From Eledone cirrhosa (taxonomy: Eukaryota), in NCBI GenBank assembly GCA_964016885.1, contig OZ024748.1, positions 20,460,001 to 20,524,000 of the forward strand: a stretch of 64,000 nucleotides of DNA, written 5' to 3'. A program made the position numbers and the translations under genes. Positions within the stretch are counted from its first letter, which is position 1. Each line of letters begins with the position of its first letter. Positions 1,331 through 58,689 of this stretch are shown one piece after another. A model generated the notes under the pieces. It saw only the letters and a program-made list of their open reading frames with translations. It ran no database searches and was not told the DNA's origin.

Positions 1331-1663
1331 ATCATTTCATTTTTACGTCCACTTTTCCCTGCTTGCAAGGGTGGGACGGGAACCGATTCTGGCTTGATTT
1401 CCACAGCTGGATGCCCTTCCTAACACCAACCTCATTTACAGTGAGTGCTAGGTGCTTTTTTGCCGTGGCACCTCCATGACCACTTTGCAGTGGAATGATA
1501 GGGACCCCAGTCCCTATCATCTCATTTCTACAGCTGAGTAAACTGGAGCAACGTGAAATAAAGTGTCTTGCTCAAAGAAACAACACATCACCCAGTCTGA
1601 GAATTGAACTCACAACCTTTTGATTGCAAGACCAATGCTCTAACCACTAAGCCATGTGCCTCC
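1331..1663 (-). mobile_element. tRNA-derived SINE family 2 with RTE-derived tail
   Basis: Box A/B head (TGGCTTAGTGG..GAGTTCAATTC on minus); tail shared with the RTE fragment at 19495-19550; other copies at 4836, 12972, 40031, 40853, 51167. Confidence 0.85.
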
Positions 1664-5122: not shown

Positions 5123-5197
5123 TATTGTATGTATATATATATATATATATACATACAATATATTAATAAATGGAAACTATATTTATAAAGCCATAAT

Positions 5198-5262
5198 TAT
5201 TTTATTATATATATTTCAAGGGCGACAAAGGTAAATTATGGTGCGCTTCATCAGATAAAATA
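5198..5262 (-). ncRNA. Hammerhead ribozyme, mirror copy on the left arm
   Basis: Reverse complement of 5365-5430 with intact CTGATGA/GAAA and stem I. Confidence 0.8.
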
Positions 5263-5364
5263 CAGATTTGTTTTATAAATAAATATTGACATATGCGGCG
5301 AATTTCAACCGTTGAGGTTGTCTTTTTTCCGGGTATGTCAATATTTATTTATGAAACAAATCTG

Positions 5365-5430
5365 TATTTTATCTGATGAAAGCGCACCATAATTTACCTT
5401 GGTCGCCCTTGAAATATATATAATAAAATA
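5365..5430 (+). ncRNA. Minimal type I hammerhead ribozyme
   Basis: Stem I TATTTTAT/ATAAAATA (8 bp), CTGATGA 5373-5379, stem II aagcgcacca..tggtcgccctt, GAAA 5411-5414, palindromic stem III ATATATAT, AUA cleavage. Confidence 0.85.
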
Positions 5431-5682
5431 ATTATGGTTTTATAAATAGAGTTTCCATTTATTAATATATTGTATATTTACTCCACTACTCTGTTGAGTG
5501 TTTAAGCTTGTTGAATCACAACAAATTAAATATAACCTCTGCATATATATATATATAATATATATATATATATATAATATATATATATAATATATATATA
5601 TAATATATATATATAATACATAATATATATATATAATACATAATATATATATATAATATGTAATATATATATATAATATATA

Positions 5683-5869
5683 ATTGTTTCTACTTTAGGC
5701 ACAAGGCCAGCAATTACCCAGTGCATTACTGGTACTTTATTTTATCGACCCCGTAAGGATGAAAGGCAAAGTCAACCTCGGCGGAATTTGAACTCAGATC
5801 GTAAAGGGACATAACTATGCTGGAAAGCATGGCGTCCGACCCTCTACCGATACTGCCAATCCACCGCCC
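5683..5869 (-). mobile_element. SINE family 1
   Basis: Full-length copy. Confidence 0.85.
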
Positions 5870-6378
5870 TTATATATTATATAATTATATATATAATATA
5901 TATATATATATGTTATATATTATATATATATATTATATATTATATATATATATAATATATATAATATATATATATATATAATATATATATATATAATATA
6001 TATATAATATATATATATATATAATATATATATATATAATATATATATATATAATATATATATATAATATATATAAATAATATATATAATATAAATATAT
6101 ATAATATATATATATATAATATATAATGTATATATATATATATATAATATATATAATATATAATATATATATATTATATATAATATATATATTATATATA
6201 TATATAATATATATAATGTATATATATATATAATATATATAATATATATATATATAATATATATATAATATAATATATATAATATAATATATATAATATA
6301 TAAATATAATATAATATATATAATATATAAATATAATATATATAATATAATATATATAATATAATATATATAATATAT
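5870..6378. repeat. Degenerate (TA)n/(TATAA)n microsatellite
   Basis: Direct inspection; similar tracts at 6652-6850, 8405-8553 and 9781-10131. Confidence 0.95.
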
Positions 6379-6410
6379 ATTATTATGTAATAAACAACAT
6401 AAGGCAATTA

Positions 6411-6470
6411 TTCCATTTACCAGTGGTTTCTTAAAAGCAAAAGGTTTTGCTTTCAATCCTCAGAATGAAA
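6411..6470 (-). ncRNA. Hammerhead ribozyme, mirror copy on the left arm
   Basis: Reverse complement of 6485-6544 with an intact core and one stem II change giving a G-U pair. Confidence 0.85.
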
Positions 6471-6484
6471 AAAATCCTGGTTTG

Positions 6485-6544
6485 TTTCATTCTGAGGATT
6501 AAAAGCAAAACCTTTTGCTTTTAAGAAACCACTGGTAAATGGAA
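6485..6544 (+). ncRNA. Minimal type I hammerhead ribozyme
   Basis: Stem I TTTCATT/AATGGAA, CTGAGGA 6492-6498, perfect stem II TTAAAAGCAAAA-cc-TTTTGCTTTTAA, GAAA 6525-6528, stem III ACCA-c-TGGT, GUA cleavage at 6535-6537. Confidence 0.9.
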
Positions 6545-6850
6545 TAATTGCCTTATGTTGTTTATTACATAATAATAATTAAGCTCTGTTGCTTACATAG
6601 AGCACTCTTTTTCCTGGATTTTTCCGACGGAATTACTTCATTCATTTACACATATATAATATATATATATAATATATATAATATATATATATAATATATA
6701 TATATATAATATATATAATATATATAATATATATATATAATATATATATAATATATAATATATATATATATATATAATATATAATATATATAATATATAA
6801 TATAAATATATAATATATAATATATATAATATATATATATAATATATATA

Positions 6851-7930
6851 GGTTAGAATTAACAACGAATATAGTGAAGAGTTTAGCGTAAAAGTTGGCG
6901 TCCATCAGGGCTCTGTTCTCAGCCCCCTACTATTTATTATTGCCCTTCAGGCTATAACAGAGGAGTTCAAGACCGGCTGCCCATGGGAACTCCTATACGC
7001 AGACGACCTGACACTCAGAGCTGAATCAATGGCTGAGCTAGAGAAGAAATTCTAAACATGGAAGCACGGTAGAAACTCCATTTTATGTCCCAAATGCAAA
7101 GTATGGGTGCATAAAAGATGTAGTGGGATCACAGGTAAGCTAACTAAGAACATAGATTTTACATGTGAGCGGTGCTCTGGTGCAATAAGTAGCAGCAAGT
7201 GCCCACAAAATACTAGCTCTTACAACTGCGCAGAGGGCTCTATAGAAATAGTGGACAGCTTCCGTTACCTGGGTGACAAAATCAGCAGTGGGGGAGGGTG
7301 CTCTGAAAGTACAGTAGCTAGAGTCAGAACGGGATGGAAAAAGTTCAGAGAGCTTATACCACTATTAGCCGCTAAAGGGTTCTCCCTAAAAATGAAAGGC
7401 AGGTTGTATGATGCCTGCATATGAACAGCAATGTTGCATGGCAGTGAGACCTGGGCATTGTGTGCAGAGGATATACGCAGACTAGAGAGAAACGAAGCTT
7501 GCATGCTCTGCTGGATGTGTAATAGTAATATACGTGAACGGCAAAGCATAAACGAACTAAGGAAAAAATTAGAAATAAGAGGGATCAGATGTTGTTTACT
7601 CGAGAGAAGGCTACGTTGGTATGGACACGTGATGCGCATGAAAGTCGATAGCTGTATAACAAAGTGCAGGGCAATAAAGATAGACGGTAGCCACGGAATA
7701 GGCAGACCTAGAAAAACCTGGGACAAGCTGATAAACTCCGACCTCACAGACTTACACCTCTCCAAGACAATGTCACTGGACCGAGACCTTTGGCGGTACT
7801 CAGTAATAGAGAAGACCCGCCTTAGCTAAATACATAGTAAAACCTACTACAGCCAGTAGGCATCTCTAACAAAATACACCCCCGTCCCACCACCCCACCC
7901 CGTCCACACCACCCCCTCCTATGTAACGTT
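6851..7930 (+). pseudogene. RTE LINE fragment (same family as 56362), with stops and an internal deletion
   Basis: Near identical to 57576-58750; YADD present; deletion at about 7068 removes the start of the zinc finger. Confidence 0.9.
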
Positions 7931-8739: not shown

Positions 8740-8831
8740 ATATATAATATATATAATATATATATAATATATATATATAATATATATAATATATATAATA
8801 TATGTAATATATATAAATAATATATAATATA

Positions 8832-9781
8832 TAAGCAAACAGCCACAGGAAACAAGTACCACCAATCTCTGGGAGGGCCCTGTAGAAACAGTAGACAGCT
8901 TCTGCTACCTAGGTGACCGAATTAGCAACGGAGGTGGGTGCTCAGAAAGTACAATAACTAGGGTAAGAACGGGATGGAAGAAGTTTAGGGAACTACTACC
9001 ACTGCTAGCTGCAAAAGGCTTCTCCCTCAGAATGAAAGGCAGACTGTATGATGCGTGTATCCGAACAGCGATGTTGCATGGTAGTGAGACCTGGGCGCTG
9101 AAGGTGGAAGACTTACGTAGATTAGAGAGAAACGAAGCCTGCATGCTCCGATGGATGTGTAACAGTAATATACGTGAACGACAAAGCATAAATGAATTGA
9201 GAGAGAGACTGAGCATAAGAGGAATCAAATGCTGCGTGCAGGAGAGGCGGTTACGCTGGTATGGACATGTGATGCGTATGAAGGATGACAGCTGCATAAA
9301 AAGGTGCAGAGCACTAGAAGTTGATGGAAACCGCGGAGTGGGGAGACCCAAGATGACTTGGGATGAGGTGATAAAAGCCGACCTTACCCAACTACACCTC
9401 TCAAAGTCAATGACACACGACCGTGACTTCTGGCGTCACGCAGTAATACAGGGTACCCGACCTCCCATGGGTACATGCTGAAGCATATAAACAATATGCC
9501 CCCCACCACCGCAAGGTGGTCGTGGAGGTGCCACGGCAAAAAAGCACCCAGCCCACACTGTAAAGTGGACGTGTAGGCGCCACGAAAAAGCACCCAGCAC
9601 TCACTGTAAATGAGGTTGGTGTTAGGAAGGGCATCCAGCTGTAGAAATCAAGCCAGATCAGTTCCTGTATGAGCAAGGCATGGTCAGCCGACCAGACACT
9701 GCCCACAACAGGACAACCCGTCTAACCCATGCTAGCGTGGAAGAACGGACGTAAAACGGTGATGATGATGATGATGATGAT
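8832..9781 (+). pseudogene. RTE LINE 3' fragment (second subfamily) with 3' UTR and (GAT)n tail
   Basis: MKGRLYDAC..LHGSETW..RLRWYGHVMR..GRPKMTW. Confidence 0.9.
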
Positions 9782-15137: not shown

Positions 15138-18100
15138 CCTAAATACAAAGTAAAAACCTACTACAGTCAGTAGGCATCTCTATCAAAACACACCCCCGTC
15201 CCACCACCTCCACCCCATCCACACCGCTCCTTTCAATGTAAAGTTATGTTGGTCCCACAACATCCAGGCCAAAACAAATGAGATCGTGTAGGTGTCACGA
15301 CAAAAAAACACACAGTCCACGCTGTAAATGTGGCCGTGTAGGCAACACGGTAAAAACCTCCCAGCCCCACACTGTAAATGTGGTTGGTGTTAGGAAGGGC
15401 ATCCAGCTGTAGAAAACCCGCCAGACAGTCCACGCTGTAATGTGGCCGTGTAGGCAACACAGTAAAAACCTCCCAGCCCCACACTGTAAATGTGGTTGGT
15501 GTTAGGAAGGGCATCCAGCTGTAGAAAACCCGCCAGACAGTCCACGCTGTAATGTGGCCGTGTAGGCAACACAGTAAAAACCTCCCAGCCCCACACTGTA
15601 AATGTGGTTGGTGTTAGGAAGGGCATCCAGCTGTAGAAAACCCGCCAGACAGTCCACGCTGTAATGTGGCCGTGTAGGCAACACAGTAAAAACCTCCCAG
15701 CCCCACACTGTAAATGTGGTTGGTGTTAGGAAGGGCATCCAGCTGTAGAAAACCCGCCAGACAGTCCACGCTGTAATGTGGCCGTGTAGGCAACACGGTA
15801 AAAACCTCCCAGTCCCACACTGTAAATGTGGTTGGTGTTAGGAAGGGCATCCAGCTGTAGAAAACCCGCCAGACAGTCCACGCTGTAATGTGGCCGTGTA
15901 GGCAACACAGTAAAAACCTCCCAGCCCCACACTGTAAATGTGGTTGGTGTTAGGAAGGGCATCCAGCTGTAGAAAACCCGCCAGACAGTCCACGCTGTAA
16001 TGTGGCCGTGTAGGCAACACAGTAAAAACCTCCCAGCCCCACACTGTAAATGTGGTTGGTGTTAGGAAGGGCATCCAGCTGTAGAAAACCCGCCAGACAG
16101 TCCACGCTGTAATGTGGCTGTGTAGGCAACACAGTAAAAACCTCCCAGCCCCACACTGTAAATGTGGTTGGTGTTAGGAAGGGCATCCAGCTGTAGAAAA
16201 CCCGCCAGACAGTCCACGCTGTAATGTGGCCGTGTAGGCAACACGGTAAAAACCTCCCAGTCCCACACTGTCAATGTGGTTGGTGTTAGGAAGGGCATCC
16301 AGCTGTAGAAAACCCGCCAGACAGTCCACGCTGTAATGTGGCCGTGTAGGCAACACAGTAAAAACCTCCCAGCCCCACACTGTAAATGTGGTTGGTGTTA
16401 GGAAGGGCATCCAGCTGTAGAAAACCCGCCAGACAGTCCACGCTGTAATGTGGCCGTGTAGGCAACACGGTAAAAACCTCCCAGTCCCACACTGTAAATG
16501 TGGTTGGTGTTAGGAAGGGCATCCAGCTGTAGAAAACCCGCCAGACAGTCCACGCTGTAATGTGGCCGTGTAGGCCACACAGTAAAAACCTCCCAGCCCC
16601 ACACTGTAAATGTGGTTGGTGTTAGGAAGGGCATCCAGCTGTAGAAAACCCGCCAGACAGTCCACGCTGTAATGTGGCCGTGTAGGCAACACAGTAAAAA
16701 CCTCCCAGCCCCACACTGTAAATGTGGTTGGTGTTAGGAAGGGCATTCAGCTGTAGAAAACTCGCCAGACAGTCCACGCTGTAATGTGGCCGTGTAGGCA
16801 ACACAGTAAAAACCTCCCAGCCCCACACTGTAAATGTGGTTGGTGTTAGGAAGGGCATCCAGCTGTAGAAAACCCGCCAGACAGTCCACGCTGTAATGTG
16901 GCCGTGTCGGCAACACAGTAAAAACCTCCCAGCCCCACACTGTAAATGTGGTTGCTGTTAGGAAGGGCATCCAGCTGTAGAAAACCCGCCAGACAGTCCA
17001 CGCTGTAATGTGGCCGTGTAGGCAACACAGTAAAAACCTCCCAGCCCCACACTGTAATTGTGGTTGGTGTTAGGAAGGGCATCCAGCTGTAGAAAACCCG
17101 CCAGACAGTCCACGCTGTAATGTGGCCGTGTAGGCAACACGGTAAAAACCTCCCAGTCCCACACTGTAAATGTGGTTGGTGTTAGGAAGGGCATCCAGCT
17201 GTAGAAAACCCGCCAGACAGTCCACGCTGTAATGTGGCCGTGTAGGCAACACGGTAAAAACCTCCCAGTCCCACACTGTAAATGTGGTTGGTGTTAGGAA
17301 GGGCATCCAGCTGTAGAAAACCCGCCAGACAGTCCACGCTGTAATGTGGCCGTGTAGGCAACACGGTAAAAACCTCCCAGTCCCACACTGTAAATGTGGT
17401 TGGTGTTAGGAAGGGCATCCAGCTGTAGAAAACCCGCCAGACAGTCCACGCTGTAATGTGGCCGTGTAGGCAACACAGTAAAAACCTCCCAGCCCCACAC
17501 TGTAAATGTGGTTGGTGTTAGGAAGGGCATCCAGCTGTAGAAAACCCGCCAGACAGTCCACGCTGTAATGTGGCCGTGTAGGCAACACAGTAAAAACCTC
17601 CCAGCCCCACACTGTAAATGTGGTTGGTGTTAGGAAGGGCATCCAGCTGTAGAAAACCCGCCAGACAGTCCACGCTGTAATGTGGCCGTGTAGGCAACAC
17701 GGTAAAAACCTCCCAGCCCCACACTGTAAATGTGGTTGGTGTTAGGAAGGGCATCCAGCTGTAGAAAACCCGCCAGACAGTCCACGCTGTAATGTGGCCG
17801 TGTAGGCAACACAGTAAAAACCTCCCAGCCCCACACTGTAAATGTGGTTGGTGTTAGGAAGGGCATCCAGCTGTAGAAAACCCGCCAGACAGTCCACGCT
17901 GTAATGTGGCCGTGTAGGCAACACAGTAAAAACCTCCCAGCCCCACACTGTAAATGTGGTTGGTGTTAGGAAGGGCATCCAGCTGTAGAAAACCCGCCAG
18001 ACAGTCCACGCTGTAATGTGGCCGTGTAGGCAACACAGTAAAAACCTCCCAGCCCCACACTGTAAATGTGGTTGGTGTTAGGAAGGGCATCCAGCTGTAG

Positions 18101-18340
18101 AAAACCCGCCAGACAGTCCACTCTGTAATGTGGCCGTGTAGGCAACACAGTAAAAACCTCCCAGCCCCACACTGTAAATGTGGTTGGTGTTAGGAAGGGC
18201 ATCCATCTGTAGAAAACCCGCCAGACAGTCCTATGCGTGCAAGACAACGACTCTTGCTTCAAGTGGGAAAACTCCCATCCAAACCCATGCAAGCATGGAA
18301 CATGGACGTTAAACAATGATGATGATGATGATGATGATGA
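15137..18340 (+). mobile_element. RTE 3' UTR with an internal tandem amplification
   Basis: Flanks match 58675-58820 and 58930-59040. Confidence 0.85.
15310..18231. repeat. 112-bp tandem array, about 26 near-identical units
   Basis: ORF track repeats every 112 bp; unit acagtccacgctgtaatgtggccgtgtaggc...cccgccag. Confidence 0.97.
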
Positions 18341-53537: not shown

Positions 53538-55565
53538 ATGTATAGTCATGTATATATATAACAGTGTATATAGTCATGTATATATAATAGTGTGTATAGT
53601 CATGTATATATAATAGTGTATATAGTCATGTATATATAATAGCATGTATAGCCATGTATATATAATAGCATATATAGTCATGTATATATATTAGTGTATA
53701 TAGTCATGTATATATAATAGCATATATAGTCATGTATATATAATAGTGTGTATAGCCATGTATATATAATAGCATGTATAGCCATGTATATATAATAGTA
53801 TATATTGTCATGTTAATGTAATAGTGTGTATACCCATGTATATATAATAGCATGTATAGCCATGTATATATAATAGTGTATATAGTCATGTATATATAAT
53901 AGTGTATATAGTCATGTATATATAATAGTGTATATAGTCATGTATATATAATAACATGTATAGCCATGTATATATAATAGCATATATAGTCATGTAATGA
54001 CTTGGGCTTTGGTGTTATATATACACCAAAGCCCAAGTCATTACACCTGATGGGATGACAGAGTTCTTTGAGATACTGGCTGGAGTGCTCCAGGGAGATA
54101 CATTGGCTCCCTACCTTTTTGTCATCATAGTGGACTATTGTATGCGCCTTGCACTGGAGAAACACCAGGACTCTGGCTTTACTGTAGCACCGGCTCAGAG
54201 CAGGAGAGTTGGGGCGAAAAAGGTATCGGATGCTGAATTTGCCGACGACAAAGTTTTGGTGACAAATACAGTGAAGGAGGCGGAGGATTTGATGCGGGAG
54301 GTTGAGACTGTGTCGATGAGTGTGGGGCTGAGAATGAATGAGACTAAAACAAAATATCTGGTAGAGAATGTTGAGAAGCCAGAGGGGATCACTAATGTAG
54401 GCGGGAAGCCGCTGGAATTGGTTGAGGACTTCCTGTATTTGGGAGCAAAGATTGGGAATACGGAAGATGATGTGGTTGAGAGGAAGAGCAAGGCCTGGGC
54501 GGCGTGTCACAGCTTGAGATCGGTGTGGAAGTCGGACCTTCGTAGAGACCTGAAAATCCGCCTCTTCATTGCTGTAGTGGAGTCTGTGCTGCTGTATGGG
54601 TCTGAGACTTGGACACTGACCAAGAGACTCACTCAGATGGTGGATGGGTGCTACACGAGAATGCTGAGGATGGCTCTGAACATTAATCAGTATACACTGA
54701 GGATGAAAAACTCAGAGCTGCATGGGAGCATCCCAAAAGTCAGCTCAAAAGTGACACAGAGGAGACTGAGGTTGGCTGGACATGCTCACCGACATCCAGA
54801 GTTGACATTGCACTCAGTGCACCTTTGGGAGCCCCTACATGGACACACTAGAAGAGGAAGACCAAGGTTAACATATGTTGATGCCCTAAGGACAGACACT
54901 GGTCTGTTGGAGATGCAGGATATGGCAGCGATAATGAGGGACAGAGACCGCTGGAGAGAACTCGTCCATGGATCTCGGGAATTTTACCCGCCTTAGCTAT
55001 AGTCATGTATATATATTAGTGTATATAGTCATGTATATATAATAGCATATATAGTCATGTATATATAATAGTGTGTATAGTCATGTATATATAATAGCAT
55101 GTATAGCCATGTATATATAATAGTGTGTATAGTCATGTATATATAATAGTGTATATAGTCATGTATATATAATAGTGTGTAGAGCCATGTATATATATTA
55201 GCATGTATAGCCATGTATATATAATAGTATATATAGTCATGTTAATATAATAGTGTGTATAGCCATGTATATATAATAGCATGTATAGCCATGTATATAT
55301 AATAGTGTGTATAGTCATGTATATATAATAGCATGTATAGCCATGTATATATAATAGTGTGTATAGTCATGTATATATAATAGTGTATATAGTCATGTAT
55401 ATATAATAGTGTGTATAGTCATGTATATATAATAGCATGTATAGCCATGTATATATAATAGCATGTATAGCCATGTATATATAATAGCATGTATAGCCAT
55501 GTATATATAATAGCATGTATAGCCATGTATATATAATAGCATGTATAGCCATGTATATATAATAG
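53538..55565. repeat. 26-bp minisatellite interrupted by a LINE fragment
   Basis: tagtcatgtatatataatagtgtata units on both sides of 53991-54996. Confidence 0.92.
54021..54996 (+). mobile_element. 5'-truncated RTE-like LINE of a distinct family, open reading frame
   Basis: GVLQGDTLAPYLF, FADD, FLYLG, LLYGSETW, RLRLAGH, GRPR. Confidence 0.9.
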
Positions 55566-56248: not shown

Positions 56249-56320
56249 AATGAAATACCAATATAGCCAACTATAGTATATATATATATATCAAATGAAA
56301 TACTAATATAGCCAACTATA

Positions 56321-56328
<8 letters not shown>
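55685..56328. repeat. 33-bp unit dispersed in (TA)n in both orientations
   Basis: TCAAATGAAATACCAATATAGCCAACTATAGTA, about 10 copies. Confidence 0.9.
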
Positions 56329-56361
<33 letters not shown>

Positions 56362-56363
<2 letters not shown>

Positions 56364-58689
56364 CGACCTCATAGTCAGGACGAGACGCACCCGACAGCAG
56401 AAGAGGACTATCCTCAGGAGGAAAATATGGAAACTAAAGGACCCCACAGCCAGAAATAAATTTCAAAGCATATTACTTGATGCTTTCGACAGTAAGGAAG
56501 AGCATCTAGAATCGGACAATATAGAGGGACAGTGGAAATTTCTGAAAGCAAACCTGCTGTTGGCGACAGACGAAGTCTGTGGCTGGAGCAGGCCTGTAGG
56601 CAGGAGGAGAGTAACATGGTGGTGGAACAGTAAGGTGGAGGGGTCAATTAAGGCCAAAAAGCAGGCTTGGAAAGTATGGCGGGATGGGGGAAGTAGAGTA
56701 GACTATCAAGTGGCCAGGAGGGAAGCTAGGAGAGAAGTGTACTTAGCAAGAAGGGAAGCTGAGGAAAGAAAGTTCAAGCATGTTCTACAACGCGATGACC
56801 AAAAACGTGAGGTGTTCAGGATTGCCAGGCAATGCGTCAAGGAAAACCGTGATATTGTCGGGGAGAAGTGTGTACTTAACGATGATGGCATACTTGCCAT
56901 CCCCGACACTGATAAGAAGGTAGCTTGGAAGTGTCACTATGAAAGGCTACTAAATGAGGAGAATAAATGGGAGAAAGACAGTCTCCCCCATATCGACCCG
57001 ATAGAGGGACCAGCAGTGTTAGTCGAGGGGAGTATAATAAGTAAGGCAATCAAGGATATGAAGACTGGTAAGGCGGCTGGGCCTTCAGAAATAGTTGCTG
57101 AGATGCTGAAGGCATCTGGCACGGTGGGACACACCATGGTCACCCGCATAGTTAACCAAGTCGTACAGAATGGGGTTGTTCCGAAGGACTGGCATAGCAG
57201 CATCATCGTTAACTGTTATAAGGGTAAAGGAGACGCCCTAGATAGGAGTAACTATAGAGGCATTAAATTAATCGACCAGGTCATGAAGGTCACGGAAAAA
57301 GTAATAGCGCAACTAATCAGAGAGAGAATTGATCTAGATGAAATGCAGTTCGGGTTTGTGTCAGGCAAAAGCACCACAGACGCTCTTTTCATAGTACGAC
57401 AACTACAGGAGAAGTACCTAGCTAAAGGTAAACCCCTCTACTTAGCTTTTGTCGACCTGGAGAAAGCCTTCGACAGAGTCCCCCGCTCCATTATCTGGTG
57501 GGCTCTTAGAAAACTAGGCGTTGACGAATGGCTTGTGAGGGCTATACAAGCCATGTATAAAGAAACAGTCAGCAAGGTTAGAATTAACAACGAATATAGT
57601 GAAGAGTTTAGCGTAAAAGTTGGCGTCCATCAGGGCTCTGTTCTCAGCCCCCTACTATTTATTATTGCCCTTCAGGCTATAACAGAGGAGTTCAAGACAG
57701 GCTGCCCATGGGAACTCCTATACGCAGACGACCTGACACTCATAGCGGAATCAATGGCCGAGCTAGAGAAGAAATTCCAAACATGGAAGCACGGCCTAGA
57801 GTCAAAAGGACTTAAAATTAACCTGGCTAAGACCAAAGTTCTAGTTTGTAGGAAAGAAAACAAGGCGGCGGTCCCTTCTGGGAAATGGTCGTGCTCGGTA
57901 TGTAGGAAAGGCGTAGGTAGAAACTCCATCTTATGTCCTAAATGCAAAGTATGGGTGCATAAAAGATGTAGTGGGATCACAGGTAAGCTAACTAAGAACA
58001 TAGACTTTACATGTGGCCGGTGTTCTGGTGCAATAAGTAGCAGCAAGTGCCCACAAAATACTAGCTCTTTCAATTGCGCAGAGGGTTTTATAGAAATAGT
58101 GGACAGCTTCCGTTACCTGGGCGATAAAATCAGCAGTGGGGGAGGGTGCTCTGAAAGTACTGTAGCTAGAGTCAGAACTGGTTGGAAAAAGTTCAGAGAG
58201 CTTATACCACTATTAGCTGCTAAAGGGTTCTCCCTAAAAATGAAAGGCAGGTTGTACGATGCCTGCATACGAACAGCAATGTTGCATGGTAGTGAGACCT
58301 GGGCATTGTGTGCAGAGGATATACGCAGACTAGAGAGGAACGAAGCTTGCATGCTCCGCTGGATGTGTAACAGTAATATACGTGAACGGCAAAGCATAAA
58401 CGAACTAAGGAAAAAATTAGAGATAAGAGGGATCAGATGTTGTTTACTCGAGAGAAGGCTGCGTTGGTATGGACACGTGATGCGCATGAAAGTCGATAGC
58501 TGTATTACAAAGTGCAGGGCAATAAAGATAGACGGTAGCCACGGAATAGGCAGACCTAGAAAAACATGGGATGAGCTGATAAACTCCGACCTCACACACT
58601 TACACCTCTCCAAGACAATGTCACTGGACCGTGACCTTTGGCGGTACTCAGTAACAGAGAAGACCCGCCTTGCCAGTAGGCATCTCTAA
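56362..58689 (+). CDS. RTE-clade LINE ORF (RT + PHD-like finger), 5'-truncated after the APE domain
   Basis: Frame is open from 56362; KGKGD..NYRGI, QFGF, FVDLEKAFD, QGSVLSP, YADD, FRYLG, RLRWYGH; 3' UTR and (GAT)n tail to 59043. Confidence 0.95.

What the first reader, a model, noticed from the sequence alone, without database searches (positions are those of the whole stretch)
6379..6652. Cleanest dual-strand hammerhead hairpin (family H)
Both arms keep CTGAGGA, a long stem II, GAAA, ACCA-c-TGGT and GUA. The 1-nt stem III loop cannot close intramolecularly, which implies cleavage as a dimer, as known for minimal PLE hammerheads. A transcript of either strand contains one ribozyme plus its near-perfect antisense, a built-in off switch dependent on folding order.
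Basis: partly seen in the sequence, partly recalled or inferred. Interest (0 to 1): 0.7.

Follow-up and report, generated by a model that had tools for sequence, protein, structure and literature searches.

The report
Folded-back stump of Penelope retrotransposon
This hairpin is a short mirror-image stump of a common jumping gene (a Hydra-type Penelope retrotransposon whose end occurs over 1,600 times in this genome); each arm carries a predicted self-cutting RNA that the other arm would block, likely as a by-product of how the element inserts rather than as a built-in switch.

Summary
In detail: two head-to-head type I hammerhead motifs in 97-nt arms, predicted cut 3' of 6537. They are two 5'-truncated copies of the 3' end (pseudo-LTR) of a young Hydra-clade Penelope-like element (intact 710-aa RT + GIY-YIG frames elsewhere; 1,667 exact copies of the core), set in (TA)n. 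The inverted truncated copy, the one-sided tail and the palindromic stem III with a 1-nt loop are all published for this clade. The 'switch' is not supported. On either strand the antisense arm is made first and wins by about 74 kcal/mol, so there is no on state. Arm spacing varies from 56 to 8,616 nt between insertions. Dimer cleavage is likely but not forced: a 3-bp stem III with a triloop is possible. One regularity is of interest: 41 of 41 simple pairs have one arm ending at each of two fixed sites, each 5-6 nt before a GCUC/GAGC stem, which suggests reverse transcription from both sides of the DNA break. One sister-family pair breaks the rule. This scan reported the same pattern before on other DNA of this genome. 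Cleavage and transcription are untested.

The parts
5871..6377 (.). (TA)n-type microsatellite, left target flank
   Evidence: TRF 5871-6380; sequence
6378..6487 (-). Left arm: 5'-truncated pLTR copy ending at the first fixed end (E1), no tail; reaches 24 nt upstream of its hammerhead core
   Evidence: upstream family sequence
6411..6470 (-). Predicted type I hammerhead of the left arm; C3 at 6463, predicted cut 3' of 6418
   Evidence: descriptor scan, folding; cleavage untested
6485..6487 (.). 3-nt TTT/AAA overlap shared by both arms: the inversion junction (microhomology)
   Evidence: read directly by comparing the window with the family's upstream sequence
6485..6642 (+). Right arm: 5'-truncated pLTR copy ending at the second fixed end (E2)
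   Evidence: 155 identical positions of 158, 3 mismatches, 2 small gaps against the pLTR of an intact unit, L057
6485..6544 (+). Predicted type I hammerhead of the right arm: stem I 6485-6491/6538-6544, core 6492-6498, stem II 6499-6524, GAAA 6525-6528, palindromic stem III 6528-6536, predicted cut 3' of 6537
   Evidence: stem II covariation in sister families; cleavage untested
6578..6642 (+). One-sided 65-nt tail; in intact tandem units it runs on into the 5' UTR of the next ORF
   Evidence: read-through junctions in 11 of 16 intact-ORF stretches; 92 + 43 exact junction matches
6583..6603 (+). Predicted GCUC/GAGC stem-loop 5 nt past the E1 position; a second such stem lies 6 nt past E2 in intact units (absent here). 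Candidate RT start signal
   Evidence: function inferred; lead from earlier scan notes
6643..6651 (+). Short filler not in the element, between E2 and the target repeat
   Evidence: sequence against the intact unit; similar CA/TA fillers at other E2 ends
6652..6850 (.). (TA)n-type microsatellite, right target flank
   Evidence: TRF

Best explanation
The hairpin is a doubly truncated insertion of a Hydra-clade Penelope-like retrotransposon: two head-to-head copies of its hammerhead-bearing 3' end in a (TA)n tract, likely made when the element's enzyme copied RNA from both sides of the cut DNA. Shown: identity with the pLTR of a 4.1-4.4 kb unit that encodes a 710-aa RT + GIY-YIG protein; two fixed 3' ends, one per arm; a microhomology junction; microsatellite flanks. 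Inferred: the enzyme (probably a dimer) cuts both strands of (TA)n; one DNA end primes at E1 and the other at E2, each 5-6 nt upstream of a GCUC/GAGC stem, on RNA not cut by the hammerhead; both cDNAs stop early and are joined through TTT/AAA. The hammerhead's fold matters in the parent element's tandem transcript (likely as a slow, dimer- or protein-assisted ribozyme). In this stump a read-through RNA would be a dead 97-bp duplex. Odds: identity about 0.95, by-product rather than selected switch about 0.9, two-sided priming about 0.6.
For: Same pLTR next to intact ORFs: hammerhead downstream of the ORF in 14 of 16 stretches, hammerhead + tail + 5' UTR upstream in 11 of 16 (stretches chosen for long open frames). 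Hydra motifs RWK, DKT, CxCX5C, CxxC, CxH and no cysteines inside GIY-YIG. Hydra hammerheads in PMC8557442 File S2 have the same 4-bp palindrome with 1-nt loop, and Penelope-13_HM has an inverted truncated copy with a hammerhead on each strand. 24 of 73 loci are head-to-head pairs within 10 kb against 1 tail-to-tail, 2 direct and 0.46 neighbours expected by chance. 41 of 41 simple pairs are E1/E2; 14 of 14 among loci picked without regard to the tail (p = 6e-5 under 50:50). 104 of 110 E1/E2 ends abut a TA or CA repeat. The E1 arm reaches further 5' in 12 of 41 pairs, the window among them, so neither arm can be a DNA copy of the other there. The purified anole PLE protein cuts and extends both strands, starts at two RNA sites that bound the tail, and does not need hammerhead cleavage (PMC11167929).
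Against: One sister-family pair ends E1/E1 (L126; 1 of 3 head-to-head pairs visible there). 19 of 41 pairs have arms of similar length, several with perfect central palindromes, which fits self-priming as proposed in PMC3846280. The tail (65 nt) and unit (4.1-4.4 kb) are longer than published (30-40 bp; under 3 kb). Pfam gave no significant family for four ORF pieces; no tree was built. In PMC11167929 the RT start site did not differ between strands. Covariation rests on few events among related sequences. No cleavage or RNA data.
Confidence: 0.85

Rival explanations
1. Same element, other mechanism: one cDNA folds back on itself (self-priming), and the endonuclease trims one arm at the AT-rich E1 site, leaving a tail on the other.
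For: Palindromic junctions and 19 of 41 near-symmetric pairs; arms share private variants (27 of 41 pairs show no difference from core to E1; L086). Self-priming is proposed in PMC3846280 and endonuclease resolution of the tail in PMC8557442.
Against: In 12 of 41 pairs, including the window, the tail-less arm reaches further 5' than the tailed arm, which a copy of the tailed arm cannot do. E1 stays at the homologous place in sister families with a different sequence there. Both ends sit the same distance before a like RNA stem.
Confidence: 0.25
2. One reading: a selected dual-strand ribozyme device whose antisense arm is an off switch controlled by folding order.
For: Both hammerheads are intact, and the fold-back does suppress the hammerhead fold (probability about 1e-52).
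Against: The antisense arm precedes the ribozyme on both strands, so no on state is predicted. Spacing and junction differ at every locus. Intact cores are expected from youth alone (111 of 126 cores identical). No host gene was evident among the longer ORFs of the window (not searched against families).
Confidence: 0.04
3. An independent non-coding element (retrozyme, MITE or miRNA hairpin) rather than a stump of the coding element.
For: Short fold-backs are common (10 of 24 pairs within 180 nt); Rfam miRNA models score weakly; short tandem arrays of pLTR parts exist (L096, L098).
Against: No two short copies share a junction, apart from a truncation hot spot; sequence runs on into the coding unit in longer copies; one hammerhead per strand, so no circular monomer; miRNA scores are far below cut-off.
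Confidence: 0.03
4. Assembly artefact (fold-back read chimera).
For: No Logan contig spans the whole stretch (expected for a repeat, and a filter leaves records out).
Against: The arms are asymmetric in a family-wide pattern (E1/E2), differ by a substitution, and the layout recurs on many contigs.
Confidence: 0.01

Closest known systems
Hydra clade of C-terminal EN+ Penelope-like elements, nearest listed family Hydra-1_Obim (Craig et al. 2021, PMC8557442)
   Same: Single RT + GIY-YIG ORF with RWK, DKT, CxCX5C and no CCHH; (TA)n targets; sense-strand 3' hammerhead with 4-bp palindromic stem III and 1-nt loop (Hydra-1_oBim also reads acca-N-tggt); inverted 5'-truncated copy with a hammerhead on each strand (Penelope-13_HM); one-sided tail.
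   Different: A distinct family: its 12-nt core probe was not in the supplement. Unit 4.1-4.4 kb with a long microsatellite-rich 3' UTR; stem II of 11 bp closed by U-A; tail 65 nt; clear pLTR tandems and many intact copies.
PLE minimal hammerheads (Cervera and de la Pena 2014, PMC4209133)
   Same: Type I, long helix II, palindromic helix III, predicted dimer action; the paper notes pairs about 100-700 bp apart on opposite strands.
   Different: Helix III here is longer (3-4 bp), so monomer cleavage is not excluded; activity untested here.
Poseidon PLE of the green anole (Frangieh et al. 2024, PMC11167929)
   Same: Two internal RT start sites bounding the tail, AT-rich target, template uncut at the hammerhead, predicted protein dimer.
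   Different: Other clade; hammerhead overlaps the ORF start there and lies 272 nt upstream of the next ATG here; a strict one-end-each pairing was not in the parts I read.
Animal non-LTR retrozymes (PMC7229834; bioRxiv 10.64898/2026.07.22.740005)
   Same: Type I hammerhead related to PLE pLTRs.
   Different: Not a tandem array of same-strand hammerhead monomers; a direct truncation of a coding element.

Membership tests
Hydra-clade PLE | Single ORF, RT with C-terminal GIY-YIG endonuclease | tested here: met
   710-aa ORF with YRDD and VVYEA...YVGMT; 1,339 homologues, one with PF01541 on record, which I recall as GIY-YIG. Pfam itself gave no significant hit. The window holds only the pLTR.
Hydra-clade PLE | RWK motif and DKG changed to DKT | tested here: met
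   RMRWKA and LSDKTKN (definition)
Hydra-clade PLE | CxCX5C linker, no CCHH, CxxC and CxH around the conserved E and N | tested here: met
   CSCRKPDEC; no Cys inside the GIY-YIG core; CSLC and CPH
Hydra-clade PLE | Canonical sense-strand hammerhead near the 3' end | tested here: met
   14 of 16 intact-ORF stretches; same stem III form as File S2
Hydra-clade PLE | Insertion into (TA)n | tested here: met
   window flanks; 104 of 110 ends at TA or CA repeats
Hydra-clade PLE | Generally short (under 3 kb); a tendency, not a diagnostic motif | tested here: not met
   hammerhead-to-hammerhead units of 4,143-4,440 nt in 9 tandems
Hydra-clade PLE | Placement inside the clade in an RT tree | not tested
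   Only a by-eye comparison with the printed part of Hydra-1_Obim: shared blocks along the RT; no alignment or tree with published members
PLE complex insertion | Inverted 5'-truncated copy, head-to-head, tail on one end only | tested here: met
   window; 41 of 41 simple pairs; published description
Type I hammerhead ribozyme | Core CUGANGA, GAAA, UH with three stems | tested here: met
Type I hammerhead ribozyme | G10.1-C11.1 pair and loop 1-loop 2 tertiary contact of fast hammerheads | tested here: not met
   U-A at 10.1-11.1, a pair broken in 8 of 18 aligned relatives; the 11-bp stem II leaves no evident loop contact (inference)
Type I hammerhead ribozyme | Self-cleavage | not testable with these tools
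   needs transcription assays
Non-LTR retrozyme | Tandem same-strand monomers each with a hammerhead, non-coding family | tested here: not met
   one hammerhead per strand; sequence belongs to a coding unit

The most novel reading that the evidence does not exclude
Hydra-clade elements insert by obligatory two-sided priming: an asymmetric RT-endonuclease dimer uses twin GCUC/GAGC RNA stems as start signals, one for each DNA end. Every insertion then gets exactly one tailed and one tail-less arm, and fold-back hairpins are a built-in product. This young family, with many intact 710-aa frames, would be a ready system to test it.
Probability: 0.5. Interest if true: 0.6.

Novelty: new member of a known kind. 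Interest (0 to 1): 0.27.

Why it matters
As a locus it is ordinary transposon debris. The family matters modestly. How Penelope-like elements make their inverted, one-tailed insertions is still open (PMC8557442 says so), and this family is young, abundant and has intact frames. The one-end-each rule and the twin stems give a direct in vitro test. If transcribed, such hairpins would supply long double-stranded RNA against their own family (inference).

Tried and rejected
Rfam: no hammerhead model matched; miRNA hits are generic hairpin scores. Pfam: no significant family for four ORF pieces. Sequencing runs: no RNA holder listed, which says nothing about expression; contigs of four runs of unknown kind show the family in very many pieces, but none spans the stretch, so they neither confirm nor refute this junction. 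My first idea, that 6487-6640 is a 150-nt tandem retrozyme monomer, fell: the sequence after the tail is the 5' UTR of the coding unit. The automated overlap measure was unreliable for palindromic centres; I used only its printed sequences. One search counted duplicates and was replaced. Alignment A1 had one row reversed and was replaced by A2. No tree with published Hydra proteins was built, so clade placement rests on motifs. Scan look-ups near this place and by sequence found nothing.

Full report
Observation. The window has a 97-nt inverted repeat (6378-6474 with 6481-6577, 98% complementary) between two (TA)n tracts. Each arm holds a type I hammerhead motif pointing outward: cores at +6492 and -6463, predicted cuts 3' of 6537 and 6418. 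The right arm runs on for a 65-nt tail that the left arm lacks. Rfam's hammerhead models do not detect the motif.

What it belongs to. The 35-nt core has 1,667 exact matches in the 3.0-Gb genome and the reversed control none; a looser core pattern has 8,931 against 1. Longer copies lead upstream through a microsatellite-rich 3' UTR into an ORF. A protein search found many long open frames. I fetched 16 such stretches: all 16 hold a 710-aa ORF (by selection), 14 show this hammerhead 1.7-2.1 kb downstream, and 11 show hammerhead + tail running into the 5' UTR, with the ATG 272 nt after the core. Nine tandems give a unit of 4,143-4,440 nt. The window's right arm matches such a pLTR at 155 of 158 positions.

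Clade. The ORF has the motifs listed for the Hydra clade in PMC8557442 section 11: RWK, DKT, CxCX5C, no CCHH, CxxC and CxH. By eye it shares blocks along the RT with the printed part of Hydra-1_Obim; no tree was built and Pfam gave no significant family. File S2 of that paper lists Hydra hammerheads, most with a 4-bp palindromic stem III and a 1-nt loop, and File S1 notes an inverted 5'-truncated copy on Penelope-13_HM, which has a hammerhead on each strand. The paper describes inverted truncated copies and one-sided tails as usual for PLEs; PMC3846280 calls head-to-head the most frequent layout; PMC4209133 reports minimal hammerheads 100-700 bp apart on opposite strands. The host looks like a cephalopod; that is inference from the protein's likeness and the repeat landscape.

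The ribozyme. In 18 aligned relatives, 5 of 10 stem II pairs and 2 of 7 stem I pairs change on both sides, above shuffled and slid controls. The core and stem III were fixed by the search pattern for most rows, and the changes are few events among kin, so this is moderate support for a kept fold. Two single-arm molecules fold best as a double hammerhead (-38.8 against 2 x -15.4 kcal/mol). A monomer with a 3-bp stem III and ACU loop lies 0.5 kcal/mol above the minimum, with stem III pairing near 0.1. Dimer action is likely, not forced; a review lists a viroid strand with a 3-bp stem III as active alone and some eukaryotic ones with up to 3 bp as inactive (PMC6466107). The U-A pair at 10.1-11.1 and the long stem II suggest slow cleavage (inference); PLE hammerheads are weak in vitro and the anole one needs protein.

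The switch. In the full fold-back the hammerhead fold costs 74-76 kcal/mol on either strand. The cores point outward, so any read-through transcript makes the antisense arm first; folds of + strand prefixes ending at 6500, 6515, 6530 and 6545 are already zipped. No on state is predicted. Among the first 100 listed matches (73 loci), 24 are head-to-head pairs, 1 tail-to-tail, 2 direct and 46 single; spacing runs from 56 to 8,616 nt, the window's being 83. This is an insertion by-product, not a fixed device.

How it likely arose. Of 126 distinct cores in my loci, 52 end at E1 (about 86-93 nt from C3), 58 at E2 (about 153-161), 14 read through and 2 lie at a locus edge (distances). Of 46 head-to-head neighbours, 41 are simple pairs and all 41 are E1/E2; 3 involve tandems and 2 an edge. 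Many loci were chosen with a tailed query, but 14 of the 24 listed pairs were fetched by spacing alone and all 14 are E1/E2 (p = 6e-5). Against the rule: one sister-family pair is E1/E1 (L126). A rough split gave the E1 arm longer in 12, the E2 arm in 10 and similar lengths in 19 of 41. In the window the tail-less arm reaches 24 nt upstream of its core and the tailed arm 7, overlapping by TTT/AAA at 6485-6487, so neither can be a plain DNA copy of the other. Both arms cross the cleavage site intact, so the template was uncut or re-joined. Earlier scan notes suggested twin hairpins past the ends; I checked this family: a GCUC/GAGC stem begins 5-6 nt after E1 and after E2, with three of four pairs at 0.94 or more in 7 of 9 and 8 of 9 junctions folded. 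With the in vitro results of PMC11167929 (both strands cut and extended, two start sites bounding the tail, predicted dimer), the best model is priming from both sides of the break, one start site each. Self-priming with endonuclease trimming remains a rival, above all for the symmetric pairs.

Novelty. Layout, hammerhead form and clade are published; the family is a new member. I did not find the strict one-end-each rule or the twin stems in print (searches), but the one-sided tail is described, and this scan has reported the same pattern for other families in this genome. Papers seen: PMC4209133 and PMC11167929, parts 1-2 of 4 each, supplements not read; PMC8557442, passages, section 11, supplement part 2 of 59 and two searches in it; PMC3846280, PMC6466107 and PMC7229834, passages; bioRxiv 10.64898/2026.07.22.740005, part 1 of 5, supplements closed. 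The unread supplement of PMC11167929 (Fig. S2, insertion ends) may bear on the pairing rule.

Verdict. Real, well explained, ordinary as a locus: interest 0.27. The two-sided priming reading is about even odds and would deserve about 0.6.

Noticed in passing
window about 5150-5542: A second, unrelated fold-back of the same build: arms about 142 nt with CTGATGA cores at -5254 and +5373, an AT-palindrome stem III, and a one-sided tail of about 65 nt before (TA)n. Its hammerhead fold was not the predicted minimum.
   Followed up: partly
L031-L044, e.g. L031:7315-7400: A decayed second hammerhead (broken stem I base and stem II) sits about 1.1-2.3 kb upstream of the terminal one in 12 of 14 long loci of the window's tail variant; none was found in the 16 intact-ORF stretches. 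Probably a captured older pLTR that marks a subfamily.
   Followed up: partly
L096 (G000:C2:169702700-169703500): Tandem array of five to six 183-nt units made of tail + 5' UTR without the hammerhead; L097 has a similar 216-nt unit and L098 a 423-nt unit with hammerhead and ORF start. Possible seeds of satellite or retrozyme-like repeats.
   Followed up: partly
L004, L010, L021, L026, L029, L086, L087, L090: Inversion junctions cluster at a T-rich tract 45-55 nt upstream of the core, often with scrambled A/T filler: a likely RT stall site.
   Followed up: partly
L035:1400-1480: The ORF carries an internal deletion filled by about 50 nt of the abundant short repeat also seen at window 5815-5870, suggesting a template switch.
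   Followed up: no
L095 (G000:C1:3570786-3571117): Two copies with the same private junction lie tail to tail around one (TA)n tract, both with tails: probably a later inverted duplication.
   Followed up: no
window 6851-7830, 8828-9478, 54001-54993, 56299-58686: Fragments of LINE reverse-transcriptase frames, RTE-like by recalled motifs; the last is a 796-aa open stretch.
   Followed up: no
window 15312-18231: 26 copies of a 112-nt unit at 98% identity, derived from a dispersed short repeat also at 9560-9660.
   Followed up: no
window 1593-1656 (-): Weak tRNA match (32.8 bits), possibly a SINE head.
   Followed up: no
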